From Sulfurimonas sp. (GTDB taxonomy: Bacteria; Campylobacterota; Campylobacteria; Campylobacterales; Sulfurimonadaceae), in contig JAQIBW010000333.1 in the NCBI GenBank assembly GCA_027858865.1, positions 1-36,147 on the forward strand: DNA of 36,147 bases, given 5' to 3'. The notes under the pieces were generated by a model, which did not search any database, had not been told where the DNA came from, and saw nothing but the letters and a program-made list of their open reading frames with translations. This document shows, one piece after another, positions 9,215 to 36,014 of the stretch. The position numbers and the translations under genes were made by a program. Every line of letters begins with the position of its first letter. The first letter of the stretch is position 1.

Positions 9215-10306
9215 ATGAGAGCATTTGTAAATGAGTATGAATCTAACTCATGTGTAGGTAATACTAAAGAGTTGATGGAATCAATATATAAACAACAGAC
9301 TGGAATAACAATAGATACTACTTATATTCCAGATATTCCTGTTGGACTTGGAAAAATGAAATATAATAATTTCTTTGAAAGTCTCAATTCTGTCGTTGCA
9401 ACTGTTCTAGATAAATCAAATTTAGAAAATTTTAATGATACGCTACTCATTGTTGGATCTTCTGTAGGTGGAATGCAAGAGAGTGAACAGCACTACTTTA
9501 AAGATAAAAATTATAAAAATATAGATACTTCTCGTCATGCTATTAGTGTTATCTCAGACTCTTTAGAAAAAGAGTTTAACTTCTGTGATAGTCGTTCGAT
9601 TTCAACTGCATGTACATCAAGTGCAAATGCTCTATTGTTGGCAAAAAGACTTATAAATATCGGTGCTTATAAAAACATCTTAGTTGTAGGTGCTGATGCT
9701 CTGTGTTATACAACTGTATGTGGTTTTTATGCGCTAAGCGTACTATCTTCAAATGTATGTACTCCTTTTAATAAAAATAGAGAAGGTATGAATGTAGCCG
9801 AAGCAGTAGGAGCACTTTTAGTCCAAGATGTACAAACATGTGACTCTATTGAACTTGTTGGTGTTGGTGCTAGTAGCGATGCTTATCATATGACAAATCC
9901 AGATCCAGAAGCAAATGGGGCTATAGCATCAATGAGTAAAGCTTTAAAAGATGCTAACTTAGATGCAAAAGACATAGACTATGTAAACGCACATGGTACT
10001 GGAACAATGGCAAATGATACAGTAGAGGGTTTAGGTATTGAAAAACTCTTTAATGATGTTTATGTAAGCTCTACAAAGGCAATAACAGGACATACATTAG
10101 GGGCTGCAGCTGCTCTTGAGGCTATTATCTCTTGTGAGGTTATTAAGCAGGGGATTATTCCATCACAGACAAATTTAACAGATGCTCAAAACAAAAATAT
10201 AAATATTCCAAATGAAAATATTAAACAAGATGTAAAGTATGTTATCAGTAACTCATTTGCATTTGGTGGAAATAACACATCACTTATCTTTGGAGGATTA
10301 AACTAA
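9215..10306 (+). CDS. Beta-ketoacyl-ACP synthase (type II KS, ApeO-like elongation KS)
   Basis: Cys-His-His triad: TACTSS, NAHGTGT, GHTLG; C-terminal SNSFAFGGNN. Start moved from 9191 to 9215 because of the SD. Confidence 0.9.
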   Translation: MRAFVNEYESNSCVGNTKELMESIYKQQTGITIDTTYIPDIPVGLGKMKYNNFFESLNSVVATVLDKSNLENFNDTLLIVGSSVGGMQESEQHYFKDKNYKNIDTSRHAISVISDSLEKEFNFCDSRSISTACTSSANALLLAKRLINIGAYKNILVVGADALCYTTVCGFYALSVLSSNVCTPFNKNREGMNVAEAVGALLVQDVQTCDSIELVGVGASSDAYHMTNPDPEANGAIASMSKALKDANLDAKDIDYVNAHGTGTMANDTVEGLGIEKLFNDVYVSSTKAITGHTLGAAAALEAIISCEVIKQGIIPSQTNLTDAQNKNINIPNENIKQDVKYVISNSFAFGGNNTSLIFGGLN

Positions 10307-10956
10307 TGTCAAAAAAAGTAGCAGTTACTATAATCAGTGCTTCAAAAATATATGCACCTCAAAAAATAGAAGACTTAGAAGAGAAACGCATAGTTCCAAA
10401 GATGATAATAAGACGACGTTTAACTAGAAATGCAAAGATTATGCTCTACCTAGCAGATAAGTGTTCATTTACTGGTGGTAAAATTGTGTATGCTTCTGCG
10501 TTTGGCGAACTACAATCTACTGTTGGCATCACCGATTCCATCGTAAATCAAACGCAGATAAGCCCTACTCTTTTTCAAAATAGTGTTTATAACTCTGCAC
10601 CATCTTACTTCTCACTTTTAAATGAAGATAAGGATGAGATTATTACTATCTCATCAGGTATGAAAAGCTCCCTTGATGCTTTAAAAACTGCTGCATTACA
10701 AGCATTTATCTCAAATGAAAAAGTTTTATGTGTAGCTACTGAGTGTTTAGACATAAAAAATATACAAGAGGTAAACAACTGTACAACTTATCTTGAATCT
10801 GGAGCAGGTGTAGTCCTTGAAATAGCTCAAGATGAGAGTGGTGCTGTTGAGATAGATGAGTCAAACGAAGAGGGATTAATTGACTCTTTATCTGACTTAG
10901 TAAGAGTAGTGAAAATGAGTGAAAATGGTATAAAAAAGATCTTTATTAACTTATAG
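10306..10956 (+). CDS. Ketosynthase chain-length factor (ApeC-like, non-catalytic)
   Basis: IRRRLTR, VYASAFGE and ISPTLFQNSVYN motifs typical of APE chain-length factors; no catalytic triad; coupled to the KS by a TAATG overlap. Confidence 0.85.
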   Translation: MSKKVAVTIISASKIYAPQKIEDLEEKRIVPKMIIRRRLTRNAKIMLYLADKCSFTGGKIVYASAFGELQSTVGITDSIVNQTQISPTLFQNSVYNSAPSYFSLLNEDKDEIITISSGMKSSLDALKTAALQAFISNEKVLCVATECLDIKNIQEVNNCTTYLESGAGVVLEIAQDESGAVEIDESNEEGLIDSLSDLVRVVKMSENGIKKIFINL

Positions 10957-10965
10957 ATTTAAGAT

Positions 10966-10992
10966 TTTGTGGGGCTTATAAAGCCTCACAAA
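10966..10992. terminator. Hairpin between convergent genes; possible bidirectional terminator
   Basis: tttgtggggctt-ata-aagcctcacaaa forms a 12-bp stem with one G-U pair on +; it overlaps the methyltransferase stop and lacks a clear U-tract. Confidence 0.4.
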
Positions 10993-12040
10993 CCATTAGT
11001 GTATGTCCAAATCCTAAACCGTTAATTTCTTCAACAACTTTAAGTCCAGCTTCCTCAGCAAATTTTTTAAATTCACTTGCTCTATACATTTTACTCGTAC
11101 CATTTGCCATTGTACTAAAGTAAGGAGACGTATTTATAAGACAGTATGCACCTATCTCATGGCTCTGTCTATCCCAAAATGGCTCAACAATATAAACCTT
11201 TCCATCATCTTTAAGTGCAGTTTTTGCACGTTTAAGAAGGTTGACAATATCTGATGGAGGAAAACAGTCTAAGAACTGACTCATCCAAACACCATCTACC
11301 TCAGATGGGAATGGTTTTGAGTGATCTAGTAGGTCCAGAGGGTAGCCTTTAACTCTATCTTTAACTCCGGCTTCTTCTGCGTTTACATATGCAACATCTA
11401 TTTGAGCTTTGTGATCTAAAATAGTTACTGTTGTATCTGGAGAAGCACTTGTAAGTGCAATAGACCATTTTCCAGTATTTCCCCCAACATCAAGAAGGTT
11501 TTTAATCCCACGTTTACTAATAATCTCAACTAAAGACTTAAACGCAGCATCAGAGTAGAAGTGATCAAAACCAAACCAACTATCTTGAGCTTTTTGTGGT
11601 AGCTTTGTTAAGATAGGATATATAGTCTCTTCTGTTTTTGAAAATATATGATGTAAGCCTGCAGGTTTCCCTTCTTTAAGAGCTTCATCAAGGTAAAAAA
11701 GTCCCTCATAATTTACATCATGGTTATAGCTAAGGTTTGCTTTTGTCATCTCGTCATTTTCTAAAAAATATCCTATTCTTGTGATAGTATATTTTTCATC
11801 TTCAAAATTGAGTGCTCCCATACTAAACCCAGACTCACACAAAACTTGTGCAGCATAGACTGTAATATCACATTCTTTTGATATTTCCTCAATACTTAAA
11901 GGCTTTTTTTTTGTTTGAAGTAAGTTAAAAATTCCCCAATCACGAAGTAGTCTAGCACACTGAAATACTACAGGTGCAAAGGCTATTTTTTGGGCTTCAA
12001 GGAGGGCTTGCTCCCCCGAGATTTCTTTTGTATTGAACAT
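10976..12040 (-). CDS. SAM-dependent methyltransferase with an O-methyltransferase-type fold (ApeB-like)
   Basis: N-terminal dimerisation/HTH region, LLDVGGNTG SAM motif, WMSQFLDCF; AQKIAFAPVVFQ N-terminus resembles APE-cluster methyltransferases. Confidence 0.85.
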   Translation of the reverse strand: MFNTKEISGEQALLEAQKIAFAPVVFQCARLLRDWGIFNLLQTKKKPLSIEEISKECDITVYAAQVLCESGFSMGALNFEDEKYTITRIGYFLENDEMTKANLSYNHDVNYEGLFYLDEALKEGKPAGLHHIFSKTEETIYPILTKLPQKAQDSWFGFDHFYSDAAFKSLVEIISKRGIKNLLDVGGNTGKWSIALTSASPDTTVTILDHKAQIDVAYVNAEEAGVKDRVKGYPLDLLDHSKPFPSEVDGVWMSQFLDCFPPSDIVNLLKRAKTALKDDGKVYIVEPFWDRQSHEIGAYCLINTSPYFSTMANGTSKMYRASEFKKFAEEAGLKVVEEINGLGFGHTLMVCEAL

Positions 12041-12055: not shown

Positions 12056-12637
12056 TTATTTAGTTGTTGACTCGTCTGAAATAACTTTACCTTTGTTAAA
12101 TGAAACAACAAATGTAGTCCATCTGTTTTTCCAATATACCCATGTATCCGTTTTTAAGTCCGGTGTACGATGTTGTGGTGGTGTACCAAGAGATAATAAA
12201 ACAGCACTTTTACTCATACCTTTAACTAAACCAGCAGATTCAATAGCTTTTTGTTCTGCCTTAGAAAATTGTGAAAGATTTACTTTTTTTGTTGAGAAGT
12301 ATTTTGATGCAACATCAGAAATACCCATTCCTGAGTACTTTGCAATATTTCTCAAAGTGATTTTTTGACCTTCATATAAAAATGTAAGCTGTTTTGCATT
12401 TACATCTTGCATCGTAACTAAAGAGTTTACTGGAATCAAAGTACCGATTTGGTAGTTTGTTGTATCAATAATTTTACTAGATCTAGATACATTGTAATGC
12501 ATATTAGATTGTGTATACATTTTTGATTTATCTTGAAAAGTTTTTGTAACCTCTGGAGTTAGTTTCGCTGCTCCACATCCACTCATTAAAAAACTTAAAC
12601 CTATTGTAGCCATTAACATACTTAAATGTTTTATCAT
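12056..12637 (-). CDS. Lipoprotein with C-terminal SmpA/OmlA-like domain (APE-cluster lipoprotein, ApeA-like)
   Basis: Lipobox FLMSG-C; GMSKSAVLLSLGTPP...WVYW...VSFNKGKV; lies directly upstream of the methyltransferase. Confidence 0.7.
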   Translation of the reverse strand: MIKHLSMLMATIGLSFLMSGCGAAKLTPEVTKTFQDKSKMYTQSNMHYNVSRSSKIIDTTNYQIGTLIPVNSLVTMQDVNAKQLTFLYEGQKITLRNIAKYSGMGISDVASKYFSTKKVNLSQFSKAEQKAIESAGLVKGMSKSAVLLSLGTPPQHRTPDLKTDTWVYWKNRWTTFVVSFNKGKVISDESTTK

Positions 12638-12773: not shown

Positions 12774-13685
12774 ATGAAAAAAGTATTAGTTGTTTATTAT
12801 TCACAGACAGGGCAACTGGAGAGTGTTTTAAAAAGTTTCACCTCAAAACTAGGTGATGAAGAGATAAAAGTTGATATGCGCCCTATACAACTTAAAGTGA
12901 AATATCCGTTTCCATGGCCATTTTATACATTTTTTGATGAATTTCCAGAAGCTGTTCAGATGGACGGTTGTGAGATAGAAGAGCTTAAAGAGCTAGAAGA
13001 AGATTATGCTTTAATCATTTTAGGATATACAGTTTGGTATATGTCCCCTTCAATTCCTATAACTGCTTTTATGCAATCACAACAAGCAAAGAAAATATTT
13101 AAAAATAAACCTGTGGTAACTGTTGTAGCTTGTCGTGACATGTGGGTACTAGCACAAGAAAAAGTGAAAGTTCTACTTAATAGTCTTGATTCAAGAGTCA
13201 TAGATCATGTAGCTCTTACAGATCAGAGTGGTTCAGTTTTAAGTCTTGTAACTTTACCTATGTGGATGTTAACAGGAAATAAAAAGTTTTTCAGTGCATT
13301 ACCACAGGCTGGTATTACTCAAGAAAATATTGATAACTGTACAAGATTTGGTGAACGCCTAAATAGTTCTCTTAAGCAAGATAAAGAGAAAGAATCAGGG
13401 GCAATGTTGAAAAACTTAGCTGCAGTAAGTGTAAATGCAAAACTTATAGCAACTGAAAAAATTGCTAATAGAAGTTTTTTAGTCTGGACACAACTTATTA
13501 AGTGGTCTGGTAAAAAATATTCATTTGGTAGAAAAGTAACTATAACAATCTATTTTGTGTTTTTGGTACTTTTATTATTGACTGTTGTTCCATTAAATAT
13601 TTTGGCACGAAAAATTTTAAATATTTTTCAAAAAGAAAAGTTACAAGCTATGGAAGAGAAATATGAACTTCCAAGTGGTAAATAA
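12774..13685 (+). CDS. darA: Dialkylresorcinol condensing/aromatase enzyme DarA
   Basis: KKVLVVYYSQTGQL, YPFPWPF..FFDEFPE, GYTVWYMSPSIP and ACRDMW motifs; directly upstream of darB. Confidence 0.9.
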   Translation: MKKVLVVYYSQTGQLESVLKSFTSKLGDEEIKVDMRPIQLKVKYPFPWPFYTFFDEFPEAVQMDGCEIEELKELEEDYALIILGYTVWYMSPSIPITAFMQSQQAKKIFKNKPVVTVVACRDMWVLAQEKVKVLLNSLDSRVIDHVALTDQSGSVLSLVTLPMWMLTGNKKFFSALPQAGITQENIDNCTRFGERLNSSLKQDKEKESGAMLKNLAAVSVNAKLIATEKIANRSFLVWTQLIKWSGKKYSFGRKVTITIYFVFLVLLLLTVVPLNILARKILNIFQKEKLQAMEEKYELPSGK

Positions 13686-13697: not shown

Positions 13698-14843
13698 ATG
13701 AGAAATGTATATATAAACAAAATAGCAGCTTTTTTACCAAATGAAGCAGTTGACAATACAAACATTGAAAAAGTCTTAGGACAGGTTGGTGAAAGACCTT
13801 CTCGTGCAAAAAGAATTATCCTACGTTCAAATAAGATAGAAACTAGATACTATGCAATAGATCCCAAAACACATCAAATTACACATACAAATGCAGAGCT
13901 AACTGCAAATGCAATTAAAAAACTTGAAGCTGATGGTCTTGACCTAAATAGTGTTGATTTACTCTCTTGTGGAACAAGCATGCCTGATCAACTTATGCCA
14001 AACCATGCAAGTATGGTACATGGTGAGTTAGCTTGTGACCCTCTAGAAGTTGTCTCTACAGCTGGAATCTGTCTGAGTGGAGTAACTGCTTTAAAGTACG
14101 CATTCACAGCAGTAAAATCTGGTGAAGCAGAGATTGCAGTTGCTACTGGTAGTGAAAATGCATCGGCAATTATGAGAGCAGAAAACTTTGCTCCTGAGAT
14201 TGAGGCTAAAGTAGACAACCTTGAGAAGCATCAAGAAATAGCGTTTGAAAAAGATTTCTTAAGATGGATGCTAAGTGATGGAGCAGGTGCTATTGCTTTG
14301 AGTGCAAAGCCAAATACAGACTCTCTCTCTCTTAAAATAGACAAAATTTTTTCAACTTCATATGCGAATATTTTAGATACTTGTATGTATGCTGGAAGCG
14401 AAAAACAAGAAGATGGCTCTCTAAGAGGCTGGAGAACTTACTCTCCACAAGAGTGGTTGAGTAAGTCCATTTTTGCTGTAAAACAAGATGTAAAACTTCT
14501 TAACGAAAATGTAATGGAATACACCGTTGCGCAAGCACTTATTACGATGCTTGGGAAAAATATGTTTGACCCTAAAGAGATAGACTGGTTCTTACCTCAC
14601 TACTCATCTGTTTTTTTTAGAGATATAGTTTATGAAAAAATGCTAAAAGCAGGTTGTGATATTCCTCAAGATAAATGGTTCACAAACCTTTCATATAAAG
14701 GTAACACAGGTTCTGCATCTATCTATATCATGATTGAAGAATTGCTCAATAATGGAAAAGTTAAAAAAGGGGAAAAGGTTCTCTGTTATATTCCAGAAAG
14801 TGGTAGATTTTCTACTGCATTTATGCTTTTAGAGGCTGTTTAG
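13698..14843 (+). CDS. darB: StlD/DarB-family KS III (dialkylcyclohexanedione synthase)
   Basis: PNHASMVHGEL, AGICLSG (Cys), FEKDFLRWMLSDGAGA, FLPHYSS (His), GNTGSAS (Asn), PESGRFS. Confidence 0.93.
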   Translation: MRNVYINKIAAFLPNEAVDNTNIEKVLGQVGERPSRAKRIILRSNKIETRYYAIDPKTHQITHTNAELTANAIKKLEADGLDLNSVDLLSCGTSMPDQLMPNHASMVHGELACDPLEVVSTAGICLSGVTALKYAFTAVKSGEAEIAVATGSENASAIMRAENFAPEIEAKVDNLEKHQEIAFEKDFLRWMLSDGAGAIALSAKPNTDSLSLKIDKIFSTSYANILDTCMYAGSEKQEDGSLRGWRTYSPQEWLSKSIFAVKQDVKLLNENVMEYTVAQALITMLGKNMFDPKEIDWFLPHYSSVFFRDIVYEKMLKAGCDIPQDKWFTNLSYKGNTGSASIYIMIEELLNNGKVKKGEKVLCYIPESGRFSTAFMLLEAV

Positions 14844-14844: not shown

Positions 14845-15261
14845 ATGGATATTAATAGCGTTCCTCAAGATGATAGTTCAACATATGCAAAGAACAAAAA
14901 AGCGATATACGCGAAAGATGAAGATGGCAGCGTAAAGGTTGTCGGGTCTAGCGGTTGGAACGTAGAAGAGACAGTTACAAAACAAGCCTTAGAAAATCTG
15001 CTTGAACATGAAGCCGAAGCATACTGTGAAGTTAAAAAAGGACTCAAATCACCTCTGTACTACTATATGTATTCAATTAGAATGGATTTACAGGTTTTAT
15101 CTGAATCCACAGGTTTTTTTAAATGGACTATAAACAGAGACTTTAAACCTGAAGTCTTTGCTAAAATAAATGAAAAACGTTTAGCTGTTTATGCTGAAGC
15201 CATGGGTATAACAAGTGAAAACTTAAAAGTACTGCAAGAGAGTAATTATGAGTGTACCTGA
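14845..15261 (+). CDS. Conserved dar-cluster hypothetical protein with an HTH-like C-terminus
   Basis: VPQD..., YAKDEDG, SSGW.VE, SPLYYYM, MDLQVLSESTG; position between darB and the BtrH-like gene. Confidence 0.7.
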   Translation: MDINSVPQDDSSTYAKNKKAIYAKDEDGSVKVVGSSGWNVEETVTKQALENLLEHEAEAYCEVKKGLKSPLYYYMYSIRMDLQVLSESTGFFKWTINRDFKPEVFAKINEKRLAVYAEAMGITSENLKVLQESNYECT

Positions 15262-16252
15262 GTTTAAACATACCCATTCTGCACATTGTGAGAGTGGTGT
15301 AATGTCATCAATGTTAAGACATTATGGTCTTAACCTTAGTGAACCTATGGTTTTTGGTCTTGCTAGTGCACTCACTTTTGCTTACCTTCCTTTTTTAAAA
15401 ATGGGAGGAATGCCACTTGTTGCATATAGAAGTATGCCAAAGTCAATTATTAAAAATATTCAAAAAAATTTAAATGTAAAGATGAAACTTGAAACATTTT
15501 CAAGTAAGGAAAAAGGCGAAGCTAGGCTTGATGAGTTACTCTCAGAGGGAAAAATAGTTGGTGCTCAATCATCTGTCTATTGGCTTCCTTATTTTCCTGA
15601 GGAGATGCGTTTTCACTTCAATGCACATAACCTTTTAGTCTTTAAAAAAGATGGAGATACATACGATGTAAGTGATCCAGTTTTTGAGTTTACTCAAAAG
15701 TGTGACAAAGCTTCTCTTACAAAAGCAAGATTTGTAAAAGGTGTTATGGCTCCGAAAGGTCTTCTTTACTATCCTACAAGTGTTCCAACAGAGATAGACT
15801 TAAAGCCTGTCATTGTAAAAAGCATCAAAAAAGTTGCAAAATCAATGCTAAATACTCCTGTACCAATCGCTGGGTTAAAGGGAATTAAGTACTTAGCAAA
15901 AGCAATCCGTAAACTAGGTAAAAAAGATAAACGCTATTCAAAACTATTTCTTGGACATATCGTAAGAATGCAAGAAGAAATAGGAACTGGTGGTGCTGGT
16001 TTTAGATACCTTTACGCTTCTTTTTTACAAGAGTCTAGTCTTGCATTTGATAGCGATGCAACACTTGTTGAAGCTTCTGAAATGTTTTTAAAAGTTGGTG
16101 ATGAGTTTAGAGAGTTTGCACTTATAATTGCAAAATCAGTGAAATCTAAAAAAGAGATAGATTATGAAAAAATCGCTAATAAATTAGACTCCATAGCTGA
16201 TGAAGAAAAAAAAGTTTATCAAAAGCTATTAGAATTTTGCGCAAAACATTAA
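15248..16252 (+). CDS. BtrH N-terminal domain / C39-like protein (papain-fold Cys-His)
   Basis: HSAHCESG, LSEPMVFGL, LPYFP..RFHFNAH, SDPV and MQEEIGTGGAGFRYLY motifs. Confidence 0.85.
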   Translation: MSVPEFKHTHSAHCESGVMSSMLRHYGLNLSEPMVFGLASALTFAYLPFLKMGGMPLVAYRSMPKSIIKNIQKNLNVKMKLETFSSKEKGEARLDELLSEGKIVGAQSSVYWLPYFPEEMRFHFNAHNLLVFKKDGDTYDVSDPVFEFTQKCDKASLTKARFVKGVMAPKGLLYYPTSVPTEIDLKPVIVKSIKKVAKSMLNTPVPIAGLKGIKYLAKAIRKLGKKDKRYSKLFLGHIVRMQEEIGTGGAGFRYLYASFLQESSLAFDSDATLVEASEMFLKVGDEFREFALIIAKSVKSKKEIDYEKIANKLDSIADEEKKVYQKLLEFCAKH

Positions 16253-25758: not shown

Positions 25759-25763
25759 AAATA

Positions 25764-28002: not shown

Positions 28003-28685
28003 ACATAGCTATTGTTATACCGGTTTACAACTCTCCCTTTATAGATGAAGTAATAGAAGATGTTTTTAAATACGGCTATAAAGTGATAGTAGTTGATGAT
28101 GGGTCTGAGCAAAAAGTCACTTCAGCACATAAAGAAATAGAAATACTAAGACATGAAAAAAATATGGGAAAAGGCGAGGCTATTTTAACTGGTGCTAAAT
28201 GTGCAAAAAAATTAGGCTTTGAGGCTATTTTAACTTTTGATGGAGATAAACAGCATCTAAGTTCACAGATAGCTAAATTAATTTCCCACTATAAAGAGGG
28301 AAATATTGTTATTGGTAACCGTGACTTTAGCTCACAAACTGTACCAAATAGTTCAAAATTTGGACGTAAGTTTAGTAACTTTTGGGTCTTTTTAGAAACA
28401 TTCAAATCACTTGGTGATACACAAAGTGGTTTTAGAATTTACCCAGTAAATATTTTAGAATTAAATATGCGAAATAGAAGATTTGATTTTGAAATAGAAG
28501 TTCTTGCCTTACATTCATATAGAAAGGGTGAAATTATTGATGTTGAAGTAGAGTGTTATTATCCTCCTAAGGATGAGAGAGTTTCTCATTTTGATAAGTT
28601 TCATGATAACTGGCGTTTAACGAAGGCACATACAAAACTAATGATACAAAGATATCTGTTATTAAGAGGAATTATATGGGTGTAA
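27999..28685 (+). CDS. Glycosyltransferase family 2 (ApeJ N-terminal-like)
   Basis: IPVYN, VDDGS, NMGKG, DGD, DTQSGFRIYP and RVSHF motifs. Confidence 0.92.
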   Translation: MNIAIVIPVYNSPFIDEVIEDVFKYGYKVIVVDDGSEQKVTSAHKEIEILRHEKNMGKGEAILTGAKCAKKLGFEAILTFDGDKQHLSSQIAKLISHYKEGNIVIGNRDFSSQTVPNSSKFGRKFSNFWVFLETFKSLGDTQSGFRIYPVNILELNMRNRRFDFEIEVLALHSYRKGEIIDVEVECYYPPKDERVSHFDKFHDNWRLTKAHTKLMIQRYLLLRGIIWV

Positions 28686-29545
28686 AACAGTATGGTAATG
28701 CCTTAGGTCATAAGGTAATATTGACTATATACAAGCTGTTAGGGTATAGATTTGTATCATTTATTTTAAATTTTGTTGCACTCTATTATGTACTATTTAC
28801 ACCCTCTGTTAAACAATCACTAGAGAGTTATTACAAACACTTAGGTAAAGAGCTGAGTTATAAAGCCTATTTTAAACATATTAAACTATTTTCACTATCA
28901 ATTTTTGATAGATTTATATCAAGAAATAAAGCAGATGAGTTGTCATTTGAACGTGAAAATAGAGAAGCATTTTTAGCACTTCAAGAGGGCGGTATAGTTT
29001 TACTTTCACACATTGGTGGTTGGGCAACTGCTGGACATTCAATGAAAGCCGATATTCCACCTATGAATATTGTGATGCACGAGTCAACTAAAGGTGAAAT
29101 TAGTGAATTTGAAAAATCTAAGCAACGCCAAAATGAGACAAATGTAAAAATAATAGATTTAAACCAAGGTGCTATAGCTGCAAATATTCAGATTGCCAAT
29201 GCCCTTATGAATAAAGAAGTTGTCGCTATGATGGCAGACAGAGTAACAGACCCTAGAAAAGTAGTCTTAGTTGATTTTTTAGGCTCAAAGGTAGAAATAA
29301 ATAAAAACCCATTTGATATAGCACATAGATTTAACAAACCACTTGTAGCTACATTTGTAGTTTTAACTAAAGAGAAGCATTATAAGTTAATATTTGAAAA
29401 TATTAGTATAAATGAAAAGTCATTAGAAGAAATAGCACAAGAATATATGAATATTCTTACAAAAATCATAAAAATTTATCCTAATCAATGGTATAATTTT
29501 TACGATTTTTTTAATCCGAGGACAATAAATGTTAATAAACAATAG
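28676..29545 (+). CDS. LpxL-family (lipid A-type) acyltransferase (ApeJ C-terminal-like)
   Basis: LLSHIGGW, MMADR, VDFLG and YPNQWYNFYDFF motifs. Confidence 0.8.
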   Translation: MGVKQYGNALGHKVILTIYKLLGYRFVSFILNFVALYYVLFTPSVKQSLESYYKHLGKELSYKAYFKHIKLFSLSIFDRFISRNKADELSFERENREAFLALQEGGIVLLSHIGGWATAGHSMKADIPPMNIVMHESTKGEISEFEKSKQRQNETNVKIIDLNQGAIAANIQIANALMNKEVVAMMADRVTDPRKVVLVDFLGSKVEINKNPFDIAHRFNKPLVATFVVLTKEKHYKLIFENISINEKSLEEIAQEYMNILTKIIKIYPNQWYNFYDFFNPRTINVNKQ

Positions 29546-31043
29546 AGTGATTTCATACAAAAATTTCTTACACGATAGTAGTGTAAAACTAGACGATAGC
29601 AAAGAGTTTATAGATTTTATCAATGCAGGACACGATTTTCTTATTGAAAACATCTCTGCAGGACGTCCGATTTATGGTGTAACTACAGGCTATGGGGAAG
29701 CTGGTCAAAATTATGCAGCATTTGAAGAAGCACAAGAACTTCAAAAAAACCTTTACAGTTTTCATGGTTGTGGTGTTGGTACTTACCTAAGTGAAGAGGT
29801 TTCACGTATCATGGTGACCATTCGTATGATAAGTCTCTCTAAGGGTAAAAGTGGAATTAGTTATGACTTACTCAAACGTTTTGAGATTCTTCTTCAAAGA
29901 AAAATCTATCCAGTGATTCCTTCTCAAGGTTCAGTTGGAGCTAGTGGTGACTTAACACCCTTATCATATATCGCAGCTGTAATCGCTGGTGATAGAGAGT
30001 GTTATTACGAAGGTAAAATGAGAGATACTGCTGAGCTTTACAAAGAGTTAGGTATTGAGCCTTATGTATTTAAGCCAAAAGAAGCACTTGGTATCATGAA
30101 TGGTACTGCTGCAATGAGTGCTATCGCTATAGATGCTATAGAAAAATTTGAGATTATTTTAGGCACTATGGAGTCTTTTGTTGCTTCTGTGTTTGAGCTT
30201 CTTTTAGGTGACATAACACCACTAGAGCCTTTTGTACACGATAGTAAACCTTTTGATGGACAGCGTACAACTGCTGCAAATATTTTAGCAAAATGTACTG
30301 GTTCAAAACTGACTCATGAAGCATTTGGTCGTTACGATCAGTTTCACCTTGAAGCAGAACAAAATATTCAAGACCGTTATTCTATTCGTTGTTCTCCACA
30401 AGTCTTAGGTGTAGTACATGACAACCTTACTTTAGCAAAAAAATGGATTGAGACTGAGATTAATGGGGTAAACGATAATCCACTAATTGATCACATTGGT
30501 AGAAAGATTTATACATCTGGAAACTTTTATGGTGGGTATGTCTGTCATGCTATGGATACTATGCGTATCTGTGTTGGTAATGTTGCAGATTTACTTGACA
30601 AAGAGTTTGGACTTTTAGTTGACCATAAATTTAACAAAGGTTTAGGTGAGTCTCTTAAACTAAACAAAAAATCAACACATCACGGTTTTAAAGCTATGCA
30701 GATTACACTTAGCTCATTAACTGCAGATGTTATTATGAATACAGTTCCAGCATCTCTCCATTCACGTCCTACTGAATCTTTTAACCAAGACAAAGTAAGT
30801 ATGGGGACAACGGCTGCACTTCATTTTGCTAAACAGTTACCTGATTTAACAAATATGCTAAGTATTGGTATTATCGGTATGGCTCAGGCTGTTGATATAC
30901 GTGGAAAATCTGAGTGTTCAGAATTTTTACAAAAAAATTATGACAAAGTTCGTGCAGAAGTTGATGCTTTAGAGTTTGACAGACGTATGGATATAGATAT
31001 TAAAGTAGTTTACAAAATGATTCTTGCAGGTGATTTTGTATGA
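29529..31043 (+). CDS. MIO-dependent aromatic amino acid ammonia-lyase (HAL/PAL/TAL family)
   Basis: IYGVTTGYG, GSVGASGDL (ASG MIO precursor, residues 138-140), KEALGIMNGT, QDRYSIRC, NDNP, GNFYG, NQDKVSMG. Confidence 0.95.
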   Translation: MLINNRVISYKNFLHDSSVKLDDSKEFIDFINAGHDFLIENISAGRPIYGVTTGYGEAGQNYAAFEEAQELQKNLYSFHGCGVGTYLSEEVSRIMVTIRMISLSKGKSGISYDLLKRFEILLQRKIYPVIPSQGSVGASGDLTPLSYIAAVIAGDRECYYEGKMRDTAELYKELGIEPYVFKPKEALGIMNGTAAMSAIAIDAIEKFEIILGTMESFVASVFELLLGDITPLEPFVHDSKPFDGQRTTAANILAKCTGSKLTHEAFGRYDQFHLEAEQNIQDRYSIRCSPQVLGVVHDNLTLAKKWIETEINGVNDNPLIDHIGRKIYTSGNFYGGYVCHAMDTMRICVGNVADLLDKEFGLLVDHKFNKGLGESLKLNKKSTHHGFKAMQITLSSLTADVIMNTVPASLHSRPTESFNQDKVSMGTTAALHFAKQLPDLTNMLSIGIIGMAQAVDIRGKSECSEFLQKNYDKVRAEVDALEFDRRMDIDIKVVYKMILAGDFV

Positions 31044-31738
31044 GTCTAAAAAAAGTTTTAGTAACTGGTGCGACTGGTGCTATAGGTGAAGCTTGTGCTA
31101 GATATTTTCATGATAATGGATACTTTGTATACCTAAACTATAGAAGTAATGAAACAAAAGCGAATGAAATTCATGCAGAGTTAGAGAACTCTGAAACTCT
31201 TTACTTTGACATCACTAAAAAAGATGAAGTAGCTTCAGCTGTAGAAAAATTAAATCTTGATGTACTTGTAAATAATGCTGGTATCACGAAAGATAATCTT
31301 TTCTTTTGGATGAAAGATGAAGAGTGGAGTGATGTAATAGACACTTCAGTAAATGGCACTTATTATGTAACAAAAGCGGTTCTTAAAAATATGATTGCAA
31401 ACAAAAAAGGTGCAATTGTAAATGTTGCTTCTGTTTCGGGTCTTGTTGGAAATGCAGGACAAACAAACTACTCAGCAGCAAAAGGTGCAATGATAGCGTT
31501 TACTAAAGCACTATCAGCAGAAGTTGCTCGTTATAAGATTCGTGTAAACGCAGTAGCACCTGGACTAATAGAGTCTGAAATGACAAAAGATTTACCTCTT
31601 AAAGAGATGAAAAAAGGTATTCCTCTTCGTCGTGTTGGTGTTGCAAACGATGTAGCTGAGTGTGTCTTTTTCTTAGGTGATAAAGCATCTTATGTTACAG
31701 GCGATGTTATGAACATCAGTGGTGGAATGGTTCGATGA
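31040..31738 (+). CDS. fabG: 3-oxoacyl-ACP reductase (ApeQ-like)
   Basis: TGATGAIG, NNAGI, NVASVSG, GQTNYSAAK (YxxxK), VAPGLIE. Confidence 0.92.
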   Translation: MSLKKVLVTGATGAIGEACARYFHDNGYFVYLNYRSNETKANEIHAELENSETLYFDITKKDEVASAVEKLNLDVLVNNAGITKDNLFFWMKDEEWSDVIDTSVNGTYYVTKAVLKNMIANKKGAIVNVASVSGLVGNAGQTNYSAAKGAMIAFTKALSAEVARYKIRVNAVAPGLIESEMTKDLPLKEMKKGIPLRRVGVANDVAECVFFLGDKASYVTGDVMNISGGMVR

Positions 31739-33063
31739 ATATAGCGATAATAGGAGGAGGACTCAGTGGACTTTTATGTGCACTTATGCTCCAACGCAGA
31801 GGATATTCTCCTACTATTTATGAAAGACTTACTAAATTAGGTGGTGTTTTAGACTCTTTTAAAAGAAAAAAAATACTTTTTGACATAGGCTTTCACTATT
31901 CTGGTGCTTTAGCAAAAGATCAATACCTTTACAACTCTATGAATGAGTTAAACTTACTAGATAAGTTAAAATTAGAAAAGTACGAAGCTGCATTTGACAC
32001 TCTGCACATAGATAATGAAACTTTTGAAGTTCCTCAAAGTTCAGTAAAATTTAAAGAACAACTTCAAAAGAGATTTTCTCTTGAGTCAGCAGCTATAGAA
32101 ACTTTTTTTGAGAAGTGTTATGAATCTTCTACTATTAGCTCAAAACCAGAAGATTTTGTAAAAGTAGATTCTCGTAGTTTAAAAGATGTAATGAAAGATA
32201 TAAAGGATGAAAAACTAAGAAAGGTTTTTCTTCATTTTACTATCTTTTATGCGACAGCTTTTTATGAAGATGCTTCTTTTGATTTTTATGCAAAAATCTT
32301 TATAAATATGCTTGATGGAACAAGAAAAATCGAAGGTGGTGGGGGAGCAATAATCTCAGCACTTAAAGATTCTCTCACAAGAACTACAATCAAAAAACGT
32401 AGTGAAGTTACAAAGATTTTTAAAGATGAGAATGGAATAAATGCACTTCTTTGTAAGGGTGAAAAAATCTCTTATGATGCCATCATCTCTACAGCTCATC
32501 CAAAAACAACACTTAAAATGTTTGAAGAGTTAGATAAAAAACAGACTAGATATAAGAGTCATGTTGATGACCTTGAAGAATCACCCTCTTTTTTCTCTAT
32601 ATTTTGTCTCATAGATGCAGAGATCAAATCAAACCTTTACTTTTACGAAGATGAGTTTATATCTGTTTTACCATCACGTATGCATGAAGGCAAAACAGTA
32701 GCTACAATTCTCGCAGGAAGTTACTATAGTGAGTATGAAAATCTTTCTAAAGATGCATACAAAAAGAAAAAAGAAAAAGAGTGTCAACATCATTTAAATA
32801 GAGTCAAAGAGTTATATGATTTTGGCGAGATTGAAGTTGTTGATAGCTCTACACCTTTGACAAAACAGCACTATTCTAATGGTAGTGAGGGGAGTATTTA
32901 CGGTGTTTTATGTTCGGCTAAGCAGAAAAGTCTGTCTGTTTTAATGCCAAGAACAAGAGTGAAAAATCTATATTTTGCAGGTGAAAATATTATTGCACCT
33001 GGTTTGATTGGTGCTTTTTTAGGTGCTGAAATATTAATGAATTATTTTGAGGATAACAAATGA
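31735..33063 (+). CDS. CrtI/RetSat-family FAD oxidoreductase 2 (shorter, divergent)
   Basis: GGGLSG, ER...LGG...FDIGFHYSG, GGGG, ISTAHP, STPLT...GSIYG, NLYFAGE...PGLIG. Confidence 0.85.
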   Translation: MNIAIIGGGLSGLLCALMLQRRGYSPTIYERLTKLGGVLDSFKRKKILFDIGFHYSGALAKDQYLYNSMNELNLLDKLKLEKYEAAFDTLHIDNETFEVPQSSVKFKEQLQKRFSLESAAIETFFEKCYESSTISSKPEDFVKVDSRSLKDVMKDIKDEKLRKVFLHFTIFYATAFYEDASFDFYAKIFINMLDGTRKIEGGGGAIISALKDSLTRTTIKKRSEVTKIFKDENGINALLCKGEKISYDAIISTAHPKTTLKMFEELDKKQTRYKSHVDDLEESPSFFSIFCLIDAEIKSNLYFYEDEFISVLPSRMHEGKTVATILAGSYYSEYENLSKDAYKKKKEKECQHHLNRVKELYDFGEIEVVDSSTPLTKQHYSNGSEGSIYGVLCSAKQKSLSVLMPRTRVKNLYFAGENIIAPGLIGAFLGAEILMNYFEDNK

Positions 33064-34286
33064 GAAGAGTAGTAATTACTGGTGTCGGATTAAACTCACC
33101 GCTTGGAAATTCGTATGATGAACTTTATGAGAGTCTAAAAGCAGAAAAATGTGGAATAGAATATGTCCCTGAATGGGAAATCATTAAAGACTTAGGTACG
33201 AAAGTAGCCGGTCGTGTTAAAAATGTAGACCTAAAAGCTATTCCAAGAAAATTTCGTCGTTCTATGGGTAGAGTTGCACAACTTGCGGCTGTATCTACTG
33301 GTGAAGCTATAGCTGATGCCAACCTAACTCAAGATATGCTTAGTTCTAAACGATGTGGTCTTGCGTTTGGCTCAACAATGGGTGGAAACGAAACAATGTT
33401 TGAGTATATGCCAGAAGTACAAGCGAAAATGAGCTTTCGTGGTCAAAACTCAATGGCATTTTTAAAAATGATGAGTCATACAGTTGCAGCAAACCTTGCA
33501 CAAATGTTTGAAATTAAAGGTCGTAATATTCCAACTTGTTCAGCATGTACCTCTTCTTCTCAAGGTGTTGGTGCTGGTTACGAGAGTATAAAGTATGGTA
33601 TGAGTGATATTATGGTTTGTGGTGGTGCTGAAGAGCATCATTATCTCTCTGCTGGTGTTTTTGATGTTATGGCTGCTGCTTCAACAAAACATGCAGATGA
33701 GCCACATCTTTCATCAAAACCTTTTGATGCATCACGTGATGGTCTTGTTGTAAGTGAAGGAAGTGGTGCACTTATTCTTGAAGAACTTGAACATGCTATT
33801 GCTCGTGGAGCGAAAATTTACGGTGAGATTATAGGTTATGGAACAAGTTGTGATGGTTCACACATTACTACTCCGTCAAAAGAGGGAATGCAACAGGTTA
33901 TGGAAACATCTTTAGAAGATGCAAATTTAAAACCATCAGATATTGAGTACATTAATGCTCATGCAACTGCAACAGCTAGGGGTGATATTGCAGAGTCACA
34001 TGCAACACACTCTCTTTTTGGTTCACAGACTCCAGTGAGTAGTACAAAAGGACACATGGGTCATCTTTTGGGTGGTTGTGGTGTTGTTGAGTCAGCTATT
34101 TGTCTTATTGCCCTCAACAAATCTTTACTACCAAAAACAATGAATTTTGAAACCTTAGATAAAGAGTGTGCTCCTATTAATGTTTTAAGCAAAAATGTCC
34201 AAAAAGATGTAAATATTGTTATGAGCAATAACTTCGCATTTGGCGGTATCAATACATCATTAATATTTAAGAAGTATCAAGCATAA
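33060..34286 (+). CDS. Beta-ketoacyl-ACP synthase, FabF/ApeR-like
   Basis: RRVVITG, RSMGRV, SACTSS, GGAEE, NAHATAT..GD..E, GHLLG, NNFAFGGIN. Confidence 0.93.
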   Translation: MRRVVITGVGLNSPLGNSYDELYESLKAEKCGIEYVPEWEIIKDLGTKVAGRVKNVDLKAIPRKFRRSMGRVAQLAAVSTGEAIADANLTQDMLSSKRCGLAFGSTMGGNETMFEYMPEVQAKMSFRGQNSMAFLKMMSHTVAANLAQMFEIKGRNIPTCSACTSSSQGVGAGYESIKYGMSDIMVCGGAEEHHYLSAGVFDVMAAASTKHADEPHLSSKPFDASRDGLVVSEGSGALILEELEHAIARGAKIYGEIIGYGTSCDGSHITTPSKEGMQQVMETSLEDANLKPSDIEYINAHATATARGDIAESHATHSLFGSQTPVSSTKGHMGHLLGGCGVVESAICLIALNKSLLPKTMNFETLDKECAPINVLSKNVQKDVNIVMSNNFAFGGINTSLIFKKYQA

Positions 34287-35713
34287 TGCTGGGCGATATT
34301 GTCTTTATAAACCCTCCCTATGAGCAAGTTGCTAAGGGTACTGATTATCTTAAACATATTACCAATAGATCACCATCTATTGGATTGTTGCTACTCGCTT
34401 CAAAAGCAAGAGAAATAGGCTATACTCCAGAGATAATAGAGAGTGATTTAGAAGGACTATCCCCAGAGGTTGTAGCACAAAGAGTGCTTGACAAAAACCC
34501 GAAATTTGTAGGGATTACACTTTTTACAGTAGGTGTTTTTAATGCCTCAATCATATCTAAAATTATAAAAGAAAAAAATCCTGATATTTTTATATTAGTT
34601 GGTGGACCACATATTTCTTCTATGGGTTATGAGACAATGCAACGTTTTCCTGAGTTTGATGTTTCTGTGATTCATGAAGGTGAGTTGATTTTAGAAAACT
34701 TACTTAGAAGTATTGAGAATGGTGACTCTTTAGAAGGGGTAAATGGTATTATGTATAGAGATGCTGATGGCTCTATTCGTAAAACTCTTCCACCACCAAA
34801 CATAGATGATTTAGATTCCCTTCCTATTCCAGCATGGGATTTATTACCAAATTTTCCACATGGATATTTACCTGCAATTTATGATTATCCTCGTGCTCCA
34901 GTGGCTACATACTCAGCTTCAAGAGGCTGTCCTTTTCTTTGTGAATTTTGTGATACTTCTACATTTGGCGGAAAGATACGCTATAACTCTCCTCAACACG
35001 TACACAATGTTATGAGACACTTAAGTGAAAAGTATGGCGTGAAGCACTTACAGTTTGTAGATGACCTTTTTGTAGCTCATAATGCTAGAGTTGTTGAGTT
35101 TAGTAAACTTCTTATCAAAGATAAGATAGATATGACTTGGAGCTGTACAGCTAGGGTAAATACGGTTAAACCAGAGACCTTAGTTCTTATGAAAGAAGCA
35201 GGTTGTTGGGAGATTAGTTTTGGACTTGAAAGTGGTTCAGACTGGTTACTAGATGAAATGAAAAAATCACAAAGAGTCGATACAGCAGAACAAGCTGTAA
35301 AATGGACTCATGAAGCGGGGATAAGAGTAAAGGGTCTATTTATGCTAGGTTATCCTGGTGAAACGCAAGAGAGTATTGCTATGACAAAAGAATTCATTCA
35401 ACGTGTTCCTATGACTACAATGAATCTTTCTAAGTTTACACCATATCCTGGCTCTCCAATTTATAAAAAACTCTATGGCACTTCTATGAGAGAAGAGGAT
35501 TGGGATAGACTTAATGGAATGAACTTTGTATACCAAGCAGAAGGCTTTAGTGAACAGCAACTAAATACTCAATATCAAGAGATTATTAAGTCTTTTTACA
35601 AACGTCCAAAGATATTATGGTATTACACTATAATGTCTTTAGCAAACTTAACACATCTTAAAAGGTTAGCTATGTTTTTTTTAGGTTTCTTAGGCTCTAA
35701 AATTAAAATATGA
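34286..35713 (+). CDS. Cobalamin-binding radical SAM enzyme (class B methyltransferase/BchE-like)
   Basis: N-terminal B12-binding domain (PSIGL, VGGPH, HEGE); SRGCPFLCEFC gives CxxxCxxC at C215/C219/C222; VDDLF, GLESGS, FMLGYPGET, TPYPGS. Confidence 0.92.
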   Translation: MLGDIVFINPPYEQVAKGTDYLKHITNRSPSIGLLLLASKAREIGYTPEIIESDLEGLSPEVVAQRVLDKNPKFVGITLFTVGVFNASIISKIIKEKNPDIFILVGGPHISSMGYETMQRFPEFDVSVIHEGELILENLLRSIENGDSLEGVNGIMYRDADGSIRKTLPPPNIDDLDSLPIPAWDLLPNFPHGYLPAIYDYPRAPVATYSASRGCPFLCEFCDTSTFGGKIRYNSPQHVHNVMRHLSEKYGVKHLQFVDDLFVAHNARVVEFSKLLIKDKIDMTWSCTARVNTVKPETLVLMKEAGCWEISFGLESGSDWLLDEMKKSQRVDTAEQAVKWTHEAGIRVKGLFMLGYPGETQESIAMTKEFIQRVPMTTMNLSKFTPYPGSPIYKKLYGTSMREEDWDRLNGMNFVYQAEGFSEQQLNTQYQEIIKSFYKRPKILWYYTIMSLANLTHLKRLAMFFLGFLGSKIKI

Positions 35714-35789
35714 GCATATATTTCAAGATAAAATATGAGATAATAGATTATAATACTCACAATAATTATTAAAAAACAAAGGAAATATT

Positions 35790-36014
35790 TTGGCAACACA
35801 AAAAGAAGTATATAGTAAAATTAAGAGTGTACTAATGGATGAGTTTGAAGTAGAAGAAGATTCAATTTCAATGGAAGCAAACTTATTTACAGACTTAGAA
35901 CTTGATAGTTTAGATGCGATAGATTTAATGGTTACATTAGACAAAGAACTTGCCACTATTGAAAATTGCAGTCGATACAGTCTCATTGTTAATAGTATTT
36001 TGGTTGTCATTTAA
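35790..36014 (+). pseudogene. Acyl carrier protein 3 (ApeF-like), with a disrupted or replaced C-terminus
   Basis: TTG start after AAGGA. LMDEFEV...ANLFTDLELDSLDAIDLMVTLDKEL is ACP-like up to ~35951. The tail ATIENCSRYSLIVNSILVVI lacks the acidic helix III/IV (T-V-x-D) pattern. Confidence 0.65.

What the first reader, a model, noticed from the sequence alone, without database searches (positions are those of the whole stretch)
9215..36014. Flexirubin-like APE-DAR hybrid cluster with an expanded tailoring set in an apparent sulfur-oxidising Campylobacterota genome
Seen: ~27 kb encoding an aryl polyene assembly line, darA-darB, a halogenase-like enzyme, a methyltransferase, two CrtI-like oxidoreductases and a B12 radical SAM enzyme. 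Known: APE-DAR esters are characterised mainly in Bacteroidota (flexirubins) and a few Betaproteobacteria (arcuflavins). Inference: the host looks Sulfurimonas-like, and the product is probably an undescribed halogenated and/or methylated aryl-polyene-resorcinol outer-membrane lipid. It may protect a microaerophile against oxidative stress.
Basis: partly seen in the sequence, partly recalled or inferred. Interest (0 to 1): 0.85.

Follow-up and report, generated by a model that had tools for sequence, protein, structure and literature searches.

The report
Sulfurimonas flexirubin-type pigment-lipid gene cluster
This is a real, nearly complete gene cluster in a sulfur-oxidising Sulfurimonas that likely makes a flexirubin-like membrane pigment-lipid; such clusters were already predicted in this phylum, and the unusual part is a vitamin-B12 radical enzyme, with two predicted polyene reductases, that would modify the product in an untested way.

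Summary
The cluster is real: 29 genes at 9215-35952, an aryl-polyene (APE) line plus a complete dar cassette. The host is Sulfurimonas and carries soxB. The last ACP is cut at 35952, probably by misassembly; close relatives continue with ApeG- and ApeD-like genes.

The phylum novelty does not hold. Schöner 2014 (Table S7) already lists fused flexirubin-type clusters in Arcobacter nitrofigilis and two Sulfurospirillum species, and S. deleyianum is reported yellow from a flexirubin-type pigment. DarB is in 41 of 400 Campylobacterales and 21 of 193 genus genomes, against 10 of 200 Bacteroidota.

The halogenase-like, methyltransferase and CrtI-like genes are ordinary APE/flexirubin accessories, and chlorinated or methylated flexirubins are known. 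The CrtI-like pair looks more like retinol-saturase reductases.

What remains unusual is a B12 radical-SAM enzyme: 8 of 193 genus genomes, all DarB-positive, none in 7 Bacteroidota loci, and no description found in my paper searches. Five other genomes carry all five tailoring genes. The scan noted B12 radical-SAM genes in similar clusters of other genomes, but nothing for this sequence. The product and the antioxidant role are inferred. Verdict: new variant of a known kind, modest interest.

The parts
9215..10306 (+). KS1, ApeO-like elongating ketosynthase (second ATG of ORF 9191-10306)
   Evidence: PRK09185 best NCBIfam hit; best PDB hits 7f28_B and 6qsp_A (that these are ApeO is recalled); Cys-His-His motifs intact
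10306..10956 (+). CLF1, ApeC-like chain-length factor
   Evidence: PF13723; matches the annotated chain-length factor of a Pseudoalteromonas APE cluster
10976..12040 (-). FlxJ-like SAM methyltransferase, likely acting on the aryl ring
   Evidence: NF053543 436.8 bits, below cut-off 560; kept in APE-only clusters G036, G110, G094
12056..12637 (-). Unknown protein with a lipoprotein-like N-terminus, recurrent in these clusters
   Evidence: No Pfam or NCBIfam hit; homologues in many APE/dar loci
12774..13685 (+). darA, aromatase (by position and homology)
   Evidence: 37-44% to the ORF upstream of darB in betaproteobacterial loci; weak flavodoxin hit only
13698..14843 (+). darB, cyclohexanedione-forming ketosynthase
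   Evidence: NF005293 596.8 bits, cut-off 450; NF053539 520.8, cut-off 550
14845..15261 (+). DarG-family protein
   Evidence: NF053536 166.6 bits, cut-off 70
15248..16252 (+). DarH BtrH-like acyltransferase, likely forming the polyene-resorcinol ester
   Evidence: NF053550 490.6 bits, cut-off 300; role inferred
16253..18257 (+). ABC-2 exporter: ATPase (16253-17128) and permease (17112-18257)
   Evidence: Pfam; same two functions in the Azoarcus dar cluster
18258..20444 (+). DarC-like ACP (18258-18524), KS2 (18517-19644) and KS/CLF-like partner (19641-20444) of the dar cassette
   Evidence: whole block absent from APE-only clusters G036 and G110
20495..21709 (+). Flavin-dependent halogenase-like enzyme
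   Evidence: PF04820; best PDB hit 3nix 351 bits, then Mpy16/PltA-type halogenases at 136 bits or less; GxGxxG, Lys, WxWxIP and FxDPxFSSG motifs present
21709..24295 (+). LolA-like carrier (21709-22188) and ApeM/MMPL-like exporter (22181-24295)
   Evidence: phmmer to annotated Pseudoalteromonas APE proteins, E 8e-4 and 7e-18
24292..26117 (+). AMP ligase (24292-25482), ApeE-like ACP2 (25501-25758), probable hotdog dehydratase DH1 (25764-26117)
   Evidence: DH1 has no HMM hit and is assigned by size and context only
26118..27707 (+). CrtI_1, CrtISO/retinol-saturase-like flavoprotein; 72% paralogue on contig C134
   Evidence: found in 8 of 193 genus genomes, all DarB-positive
27712..29545 (+). 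Dehydratase DH2 (27712-28002), GT2 glycosyltransferase (27999-28685) and acyltransferase (28676-29545); a split ApeJ
   Evidence: Pfam
29529..31043 (+). Aromatic amino-acid ammonia-lyase supplying the starter; FH selectivity motif
   Evidence: PF00221; FlxA model 316.5 bits, cut-off 700; FH here against SH in 5 of 5 Bacteroidota homologues
31040..31738 (+). FabG/ApeQ-like ketoreductase
31735..33063 (+). CrtI_2, retinol-saturase-like flavoprotein of a compact clade (99 hits at 55-100% identity, then a drop to 26-29%)
   Evidence: JGI names six members of the clade 'all-trans-retinol 13,14-reductase'; 13 of 193 genus genomes, including APE-only clusters
33060..34286 (+). KS3, ApeR-like ketosynthase
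   Evidence: PRK09116 459.9 bits, cut-off 470; best PDB hit 7f27
34286..35713 (+). B12-binding radical SAM enzyme, the distinctive accessory
   Evidence: PF02310 and PF04055 above cut-off; C215/C219/C222 invariant in 17 sequences; model matches OxsB, AprD4, MgmA and TsrM
35790..35952 (+). ApeF-like ACP3, cut at 35952; 35953-36147 is unrelated sequence, likely an assembly artefact

Best explanation
This is a fused flexirubin-type gene cluster of a Sulfurimonas that likely makes an aryl-polyene acid esterified to a dialkylresorcinol and exports it to the outer membrane, predicted to be modified by a ring methyltransferase, a halogenase-like enzyme, two polyene reductase-like flavoproteins and a B12 radical-SAM enzyme. 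Shown: the gene inventory, the intact catalytic motifs and the pattern of co-occurrence. Inferred from characterised clusters: the ammonia-lyase makes coumarate or cinnamate; the AMP ligase loads ACP2; KS1/CLF1 (with KS3), FabG and the dehydratases build the polyene; KS2, its partner and DarC supply acyl chains; DarB cyclises and DarA aromatises; DarH forms the ester; the ABC pair, MMPL and LolA-like proteins export. APE-only relatives keep the methyltransferase, CrtI_2 and the halogenase-like gene, so these most likely act on the polyene arm. The B12 enzyme most likely adds a C-methyl group to an unactivated carbon; its tracking with dar genes weakly favours the resorcinol arm. The same genes (GT2, acyltransferase, ApeD, ApeF-like ACP, KS3) probably also allow an APEL-type glycolipid. 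An antioxidant role is an analogy only.
For: Meets the published definition of a fused flexirubin-type cluster: PAL/HAL gene plus dar genes. The dar cassette has the same functions as Azoarcus darA-K. A Campylobacterota species listed with such a cluster, S. deleyianum, is reported yellow from a flexirubin-type pigment. Same gene order at 75-95% identity in G116 and G207, so the cluster is conserved, not debris. The accessory genes sit almost only in cluster-bearing genomes: B12-rSAM 8 of 8 and CrtI_1 8 of 8 are DarB-positive. Of the three DarB-negative CrtI_2 genomes, G036 and G110 carry it inside an APE-only cluster and G211 next to KS3 on a short contig. B12 is plausibly available: metH and cobQ above cut-off, cobS-like just below.
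Against: No metabolite data, and no transcript data were obtained. The ammonia-lyase is only about 31% identical to Bacteroidota homologues and has FH instead of SH, so a 4-hydroxy starter, and hence a KOH shift, is not assured. No ApeK thioesterase or ApeN homologue was found with single queries. ApeD and ApeG are missing from this assembly. The fold matches of the B12 enzyme include non-methylases (OxsB, AprD4). Its link to the dar arm is weak: 0 of 6 DarB-negative against 6 of 14 DarB-positive lyase-bearing genomes, with kin not independent and several drafts. Its distant homologues often sit beside APE genes with no darB in view (darB in 4 of 34 loci).
Confidence: 0.7

Rival explanations
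1. The main product is an APEL-type glycolipid (polyene on a sugar-phosphate-glycerolipid, with a conjugated fatty acyl from ApeF/ApeD), and the dar cassette makes a separate free resorcinol or cyclohexanedione.
For: GT2, acyltransferase, ApeF-like ACP3, KS3 and, in relatives, ApeD and ApeG match the roles proposed in Xenorhabdus (10.1101/2020.12.19.423268). APE-only clusters G036 and G110 have the same APE arm without any dar gene, so that arm can stand alone.
Against: Bacteroidota dar-containing clusters also carry GT2, acyltransferase and LPLAT genes, and characterised clusters with these genes give DAR esters. DarH, the probable ester-forming enzyme, is above cut-off here.
Confidence: 0.18
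2. The product is an ordinary, non-halogenated flexirubin or arcuflavin-like ester. The halogenase-like and CrtI-like enzymes are reductases or editing enzymes that add no new substituent, and the B12 enzyme is rarely active.
For: Arcuflavin is non-brominated although arcA is annotated as a halogenase. The closest structure, 3nix, is deposited as 'flavoprotein/dehydrogenase'. Homologues at about 40% are in 139 plasmid or chromid records, and the one read lies in a plain APE cluster. The accessory genes are lost freely among relatives.
Against: The halogenase motifs, including the lysine, are conserved across the subfamily. Chlorinated flexirubins exist (PMC3992019). The B12 enzyme is kept intact at 72-92% identity in dozens of relatives.
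Confidence: 0.3
3. In this particular strain the cluster is really truncated (ACP3 broken, ApeG and ApeD lost) and the APE arm is partly non-functional.
For: ACP3 diverges at 35952 and no ApeG or ApeD orthologue is found in the assembly.
Against: The break lies 195 bases from the contig end of an 88% complete MAG. A near-identical contig from another run continues the intact ACP (one contig, 31 loose letters). The other genes are intact.
Confidence: 0.07

Closest known systems
Fused 'flexirubin-type' clusters of Arcobacter nitrofigilis DSM 7299, Sulfurospirillum barnesii SES-3 and S. deleyianum DSM 6946 (Schöner et al. 2014, PMC3949708 Table S7; pigment note in PMC3035281)
   Same: Same phylum and order, same definition (PAL/HAL-type polyene cluster fused with dar genes); a yellow flexirubin-type pigment is reported for S. 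deleyianum.
   Different: I did not read those named clusters gene by gene. Among 19 non-Sulfurimonas Campylobacterales loci fetched by handle, none had the B12-rSAM or CrtI_1, one had CrtI_2 and four had the halogenase-like gene.
Flexirubin clusters of Chitinophaga pinensis (flxA-Y, darAB) and Flavobacterium johnsoniae (PMC3992019)
   Same: Ammonia-lyase starter, KS/KR/DH polyene line, darAB, GT2, acyltransferase, LolA and exporter. Halogenase-like and CrtI-like genes occur in Bacteroidota dar loci too. Methylated and chlorinated products are known.
   Different: FlxA, FlxB and FlxJ models are all below cut-off; lyase motif FH against SH; no thioesterase found; B12-rSAM absent from 7 of 7 Bacteroidota loci.
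Arcuflavin cluster of Azoarcus sp. BH72 (PMC3949708)
   Same: The dar cassette has the same functions (darA, darB, conserved protein, BtrH-like, ABC pair, ACP, KS); APE-DAR ester product.
   Different: Arcuflavin starts from 3-hydroxybenzoate via a XanB2 chorismatase and its loci are separate. The window has an ammonia-lyase, no chorismatase among 38 ORFs, and a fused layout.
ape cluster and aryl-polyene lipids (APELs) of Xenorhabdus doucetiae and E. coli CFT073 (10.1101/2020.12.19.423268; PMC8253772)
   Same: ApeO/C/R-like ketosynthases, two APE ACPs, split ApeJ, ApeL, ApeM, ApeQ, and in relatives ApeD and ApeG.
   Different: Adds an ammonia-lyase, the dar cassette and four further tailoring genes; ApeK and ApeN were not found with single queries.
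Cobalamin-dependent radical SAM enzymes (OxsB, AprD4, MgmA, TsrM, CysS, TokK)
   Same: B12-binding domain plus CxxxCxxC radical-SAM core; same fold (TM-score about 0.6-0.7).
   Different: 14-20% identity; below every NCBIfam cut-off. The window's protein belongs to its own subfamily (900 hits at E<=1e-60), often beside APE or lipid genes, with no characterised member found.

Membership tests
Flexirubin-type (APE-DAR) gene cluster, as defined in PMC3949708 Table S7 | Polyene cluster with a PAL/HAL-domain gene | tested here: met
   PF00221 465 bits at 29529-31043, inside the KS/CLF/ACP/KR/DH set
Flexirubin-type (APE-DAR) gene cluster, as defined in PMC3949708 Table S7 | DAR biosynthesis genes (darA, darB and companions) in the genome | tested here: met
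   DarB, DarG and DarH families above cut-off; darA by position and homology
Flexirubin-type (APE-DAR) gene cluster, as defined in PMC3949708 Table S7 | Conserved GT2, acyltransferase, LolA and exporter genes | tested here: met
Flexirubin pigments (chemical class) | omega-(4-hydroxyphenyl)polyene acid esterified to a 2,5-dialkylresorcinol; reversible KOH colour shift | not testable with these tools
   Needs extract chemistry; the starter is uncertain because of the FH motif
Bacteroidota flx orthologue set (NCBIfam FlxA, FlxB, FlxJ) | Scores above the curated cut-offs | tested here: not met
   316.5/700, 268.8/340, 436.8/560
Arcuflavin/xanthomonadin-type cluster | XanB2 (YjgF-like) chorismatase | tested here: not met
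   No such Pfam hit among 38 window ORFs; rest of the genome not searched
ape (APEL) cluster of Xenorhabdus/E. coli | ApeC/O/R, ApeE/F, ApeH, ApeI/P, ApeJ, ApeL, ApeM, ApeQ | tested here: met
   phmmer against an annotated Pseudoalteromonas APE cluster; an ApeP match was not obtained, DH1 is assigned by context
ape (APEL) cluster of Xenorhabdus/E. coli | ApeD, ApeG, ApeK, ApeN | tested here: inconclusive
   ApeD- and ApeG-like genes follow ACP3 in relatives but are missing from this cut contig; ApeK and ApeN not found with single queries
Flavin-dependent halogenase (PltA/CmlS type) | GxGxxG, WxWxIP and a catalytic lysine | tested here: met
   the meaning of these motifs is recalled
Flavin-dependent halogenase (PltA/CmlS type) | Halogenating activity on its substrate | not testable with these tools
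   The closest structure is annotated only as flavoprotein/dehydrogenase
CrtI phytoene desaturase | Score above TIGR02734 cut-off | tested here: not met
   158.6 and 51.8 bits against 238.1; relatives of CrtI_2 are named retinol 13,14-reductase or phytoene dehydrogenase-like by automatic annotation
Cobalamin-dependent radical SAM methyltransferase | B12-binding domain plus CxxxCxxC core | tested here: met
Cobalamin-dependent radical SAM methyltransferase | Methyl transfer to the substrate | not testable with these tools
   Top fold matches include non-methylases

The most novel reading that the evidence does not exclude
The B12 radical-SAM enzyme defines an undescribed lipid-tailoring subfamily that C-methylates the dialkylresorcinol or the polyene chain. 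With the retinol-saturase-like reductases and the halogenase it yields a chemically new, partly saturated, methyl-branched and halogenated flexirubin in chemolithoautotrophic Sulfurimonas. A 72% homologue is on record for the cultured S. gotlandica GD1, so the reaction is directly testable.
Probability: 0.3. Interest if true: 0.55.

Novelty: new variant of a known kind. Interest (0 to 1): 0.33.

Why it matters
About a tenth of Campylobacterales species genomes carry darB, so flexirubin-like lipids may be a common, chemically unstudied envelope feature of sulfur-cycling Campylobacterota. Sulfurimonas clusters form a natural gain-and-loss series (APE only, APE plus dar, with or without each tailoring gene) that could assign functions to the poorly understood accessory enzymes of aryl-polyene pathways. 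A B12 radical-SAM step would be new chemistry for this pigment class. The presence of the cluster in this phylum is not new.

Tried and rejected
1. 'APE-DAR is new for Campylobacterota': rejected.
2. 'The halogenase-like and CrtI-like genes are an expansion special to this host': largely rejected.
3. My early idea that CrtI_1 is an unrelated insertion, because of its 72% paralogue on C134: rejected, since all 8 other genus genomes with it are DarB-positive.
4. The idea that the B12-rSAM is tied to the KS3/ACP3/ApeD module: weakened, since L153 and L175 have it without KS3 or ApeD in view, and G071, G111 and G136 have KS3 without it.
5. Expression: no RNA holder listed; not evidence either way.
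6. The mgtE-KS1 junction could not be bridged by any listed contig; uninformative. Two same-genus genomes have their cluster next to mgtE as well.
7. Promoter scan of 8900-12900: 18 sites against 18.0 expected; uninformative.
8. The protein Atlas gave no answer for either CrtI-like protein.
9. Long metagenome records could not be searched for darB.
10. The CrtI tree is a quick tree with long branches; it shows CrtI_1, CrtI_2 and the Bacteroidota gene as three separate clades and does not establish orthology.
11. Paper searches with no hit: aryl polyene + resorcinol + Sulfurimonas; arylpolyene + Sulfurimonas (16); flexirubin + chlorin + halogenase + F. johnsoniae (62); aryl polyene + halogenase + flexirubin (65); PfXAL (83). 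One search (aryl polyene + radical SAM + B12 + methyltransferase) listed one general ocean-microbiome paper, seen as a listing only. One search showed no paper linking APE terms to Campylobacterota among 30 of 200 listed. Subscription papers (Fuchs 2013, Schöner 2015 and 2016, Zöphel 1991) were not searched or read, and the supplement of PMC3992019, with the flx gene tables, could not be read; they may describe some of these accessory genes.


Full report
OBSERVATION. The window is a whole contig, G000:C280, of an 88% complete genome. ORF calling plus Pfam and NCBIfam scans of 38 ORFs confirm a run of 29 genes from 9215 to 35952. The APE arm has KS1 (best family PRK09185), a CLF (PF13723), KS3 (PRK09116, 459.9 bits against 470), ACP2 and ACP3, FabG, two small dehydratase-like ORFs, an ammonia-lyase, an AMP ligase, GT2, an acyltransferase, and LolA-like and MMPL-like proteins. 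The last two were assigned by phmmer against an annotated Pseudoalteromonas APE cluster. All three KSs keep Cys-His-His motifs and all three ACPs keep the serine motif. The dar cassette is darA, darB (NF005293 above cut-off), DarG and DarH (above cut-off), an ABC pair, an ACP and a KS with partner: the same functions as Azoarcus darA-K (PMC3949708 Table 1).

THE RIGHT END IS CUT. ACP3 matches relatives only to 35952. A contig from run X2, with 3 differences in 185 bases, leaves the window at 35952; its 31 loose letters, read by eye, continue as in the intact ACP of relatives (a single contig). G116 and G207 have the same gene order at 75-95% identity and continue ACP-ApeG-like-ApeD-like. No orthologue of those two genes is in this assembly. 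I read this as a misassembled contig end, not a true deletion.

HOST. The closest DarB relatives (90%, same gene order) are in records titled Sulfurimonas (L011, L014). L015, also titled Sulfurimonas, shares the oxidoreductase-CNNM-mgtE flank at 83-91%. Cluster GC is 33.2% against 34.0% for the genome. soxB is above cut-off on another contig. The sqrF label was not tested.

PRIOR ART. Table S7 of PMC3949708 (supplement read whole; main text parts 2-4 of 5 read) lists fused 'flexirubin' clusters for Arcobacter nitrofigilis, Sulfurospirillum barnesii and S. deleyianum. The text says these pigments can no longer serve as Bacteroidetes markers and proposes protection against oxidative damage. PMC3035281 (passages only) states that S. 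deleyianum colonies are yellow from a flexirubin-type pigment, citing a 1991 paper that I did not read. PMC3992019 (parts 1-2 of 5; supplement unreadable) says known flexirubins vary in methylation and chlorination. I found no paper on such a cluster or pigment in Sulfurimonas, within an open-access library only.

DISTRIBUTION. DarB at E<=1e-50 is in 21 of 193 other genus genomes and in 41 of 400 genomes drawn across the order. At E<=1e-60 it is in 10 of 200 genomes drawn from the phylum of a locus titled Bacteroidales. A few hits are darB without a cluster in view (G112, G651). So the cluster is patchy but not rare. APE-only clusters also exist: G036 (complete) and G110 have the whole APE arm with no darB or darA.

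TAILORING GENES, ONE BY ONE. Halogenase-like: motifs intact; best structure 3nix, 'flavoprotein/dehydrogenase', 351 bits, against 136 or less for named halogenases. It has at least 7284 homologues at E<=1e-80. It is present at 40-42% in 4 of 7 Bacteroidota dar loci fetched (7 of the 10 positives, stretches of 40-60 kb), in 139 plasmid or chromid records and in 11 of 193 genus genomes. It is an ordinary accessory. Halogenation is plausible but not assured: arcuflavin is non-brominated despite arcA, although the ArcA type is probably a more distant subfamily.

Methyltransferase: FlxJ-like, below cut-off; present in 5 of the 10 other Campylobacterales loci, not seen in the 7 Bacteroidota stretches.

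CrtI_1 and CrtI_2: both below the phytoene-desaturase cut-off. CrtI_2 forms a compact clade whose named members are Campylobacterota; JGI names six of them 'all-trans-retinol 13,14-reductase' (automatic names), which suggests a polyene reductase or isomerase. CrtI-like genes at 24-26% lie in 4 of 7 Bacteroidota loci, in a separate clade. CrtI_1 is in 8 of 193 genus genomes, all DarB-positive, even where unlinked. CrtI_2 is in 13 of 193. The methyltransferase, CrtI_2 and the halogenase-like gene persist in DarB-negative clusters (G036, G110, G094), which places them on the polyene arm.

B12 radical SAM: both domains above Pfam cut-off, CxxxCxxC invariant; model pLDDT 79.5, matching OxsB, AprD4, MgmA, TsrM, CysS and TokK at 14-20% identity. 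It is in 8 of 193 genus genomes, all DarB-positive, in 0 of 7 Bacteroidota loci and in 0 of 19 non-Sulfurimonas Campylobacterales loci. In metagenomes, 80 of 256 loci were kept, and 27 shorter than 5 kb were dropped from the counts. All 19 remaining loci at 63% identity or more have KS3 beside it and 18 have CrtI_2. Of 34 loci below 63%, 15 show APE or dar neighbours by tblastn and 4 show darB. A Pfam scan of 44 of 104 neighbouring ORFs, from 12 of the other 19 loci, found LolA-like plus polysaccharide-deacetylase genes in 3, fatty-acid desaturases in 2 and no lipid context in 7. So this is a widespread subfamily, often but not always beside APE-type or lipid genes. G036 and G110 group with G067 and G032 on a KS3 tree (98% SH-aLRT, quick tree) and lack both the dar cassette and the rSAM, while G136 lacks only the rSAM. 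Among lyase-positive genomes of a 155-genome draw, the rSAM is in 0 of 6 DarB-negative and 6 of 14 DarB-positive. This hints at a resorcinol substrate but is weak. All five tailoring genes occur together in five other genomes (G116, G207, G159, G187, G143). The host has metH and cobQ above cut-off and a cobS-like gene just below.

STARTER. The lyase has FH at the selectivity positions in most Campylobacterota homologues (FC in four), against SH in 5 of 5 Bacteroidota ones. That Phe at this position favours phenylalanine is recalled, not tested, and PMC3992019 warns that specificity cannot be predicted from sequence. A cinnamate starter would give a non-phenolic polyene and no KOH shift.

MECHANISM. 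Most likely (0.7) a flexirubin-like APE-DAR ester in the outer membrane. The route is inferred from the Chitinophaga, Azoarcus and Xenorhabdus work (the Xenorhabdus preprint main text was read whole, its supplement is closed; PMC8253772 seen as passages). An APEL-type glycolipid may be made as well or instead. The rival estimates overlap, since the 'ordinary product' rival concerns tailoring rather than the scaffold.

VERDICT. A member of the flexirubin-type cluster kind by its published genetic definition; not orthologous enough to pass the Bacteroidota Flx models; not arcuflavin-type. New variant of a known kind. Earlier notes of this scan report B12 radical-SAM genes in APE/dar clusters of sulfate reducers and anaerobic Bacteroidota (unchecked), and none for this protein sequence. 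The open, testable point is the reaction of the B12 enzyme.

Noticed in passing
G000:C134:1852-3456: A 72% paralogue of CrtI_1 sits alone between a KdsB-like gene (judged from its N-terminal sequence) and a chemotaxis operon. G032 also has an unlinked copy. On the tree the paralogue groups with the in-cluster copy of G159.
   Followed up: partly
window 7716-9044 and L061/L070: G032 and G067 carry their cluster at the same site next to mgtE, with flanks 83-91% identical, but in a different gene order and with KS1 only 48-50% identical. This suggests replacement or reshuffling of the cluster at a fixed site.
   Followed up: no
L062:10041-12800 (G032): In G032 the B12-rSAM is split by an apparent frameshift and CrtI_2 contains a stop; decay of the tailoring genes or sequencing error.
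   Followed up: no
window 12056-12637 (-): Unknown 193-aa lipoprotein-like protein with no family hit; homologues recur beside APE/dar genes and beside the B12-rSAM in distant taxa (L157, L164, L183), and it is missing from APE-only G036 and G110.
   Followed up: partly
L097 (G552), between the lyase and fabG: About 7 kb of unrelated sequence is inserted inside the cluster.
   Followed up: no
window 35116-35192: One contig of run X3 skips 75 bases inside the B12-rSAM gene; single low-depth contig, likely an artefact.
   Followed up: no
L084/L085 (G112), L102/L103 (G414), L118 (G651): darB alone, or a short dar block, with no APE genes in the fetched stretch; stand-alone resorcinol modules.
   Followed up: no
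window 4485-6484: Split Aer-like sensor: a PAS protein followed by an MCP with a CZB domain, next to the sulfide-oxidoreductase-like gene.
   Followed up: no
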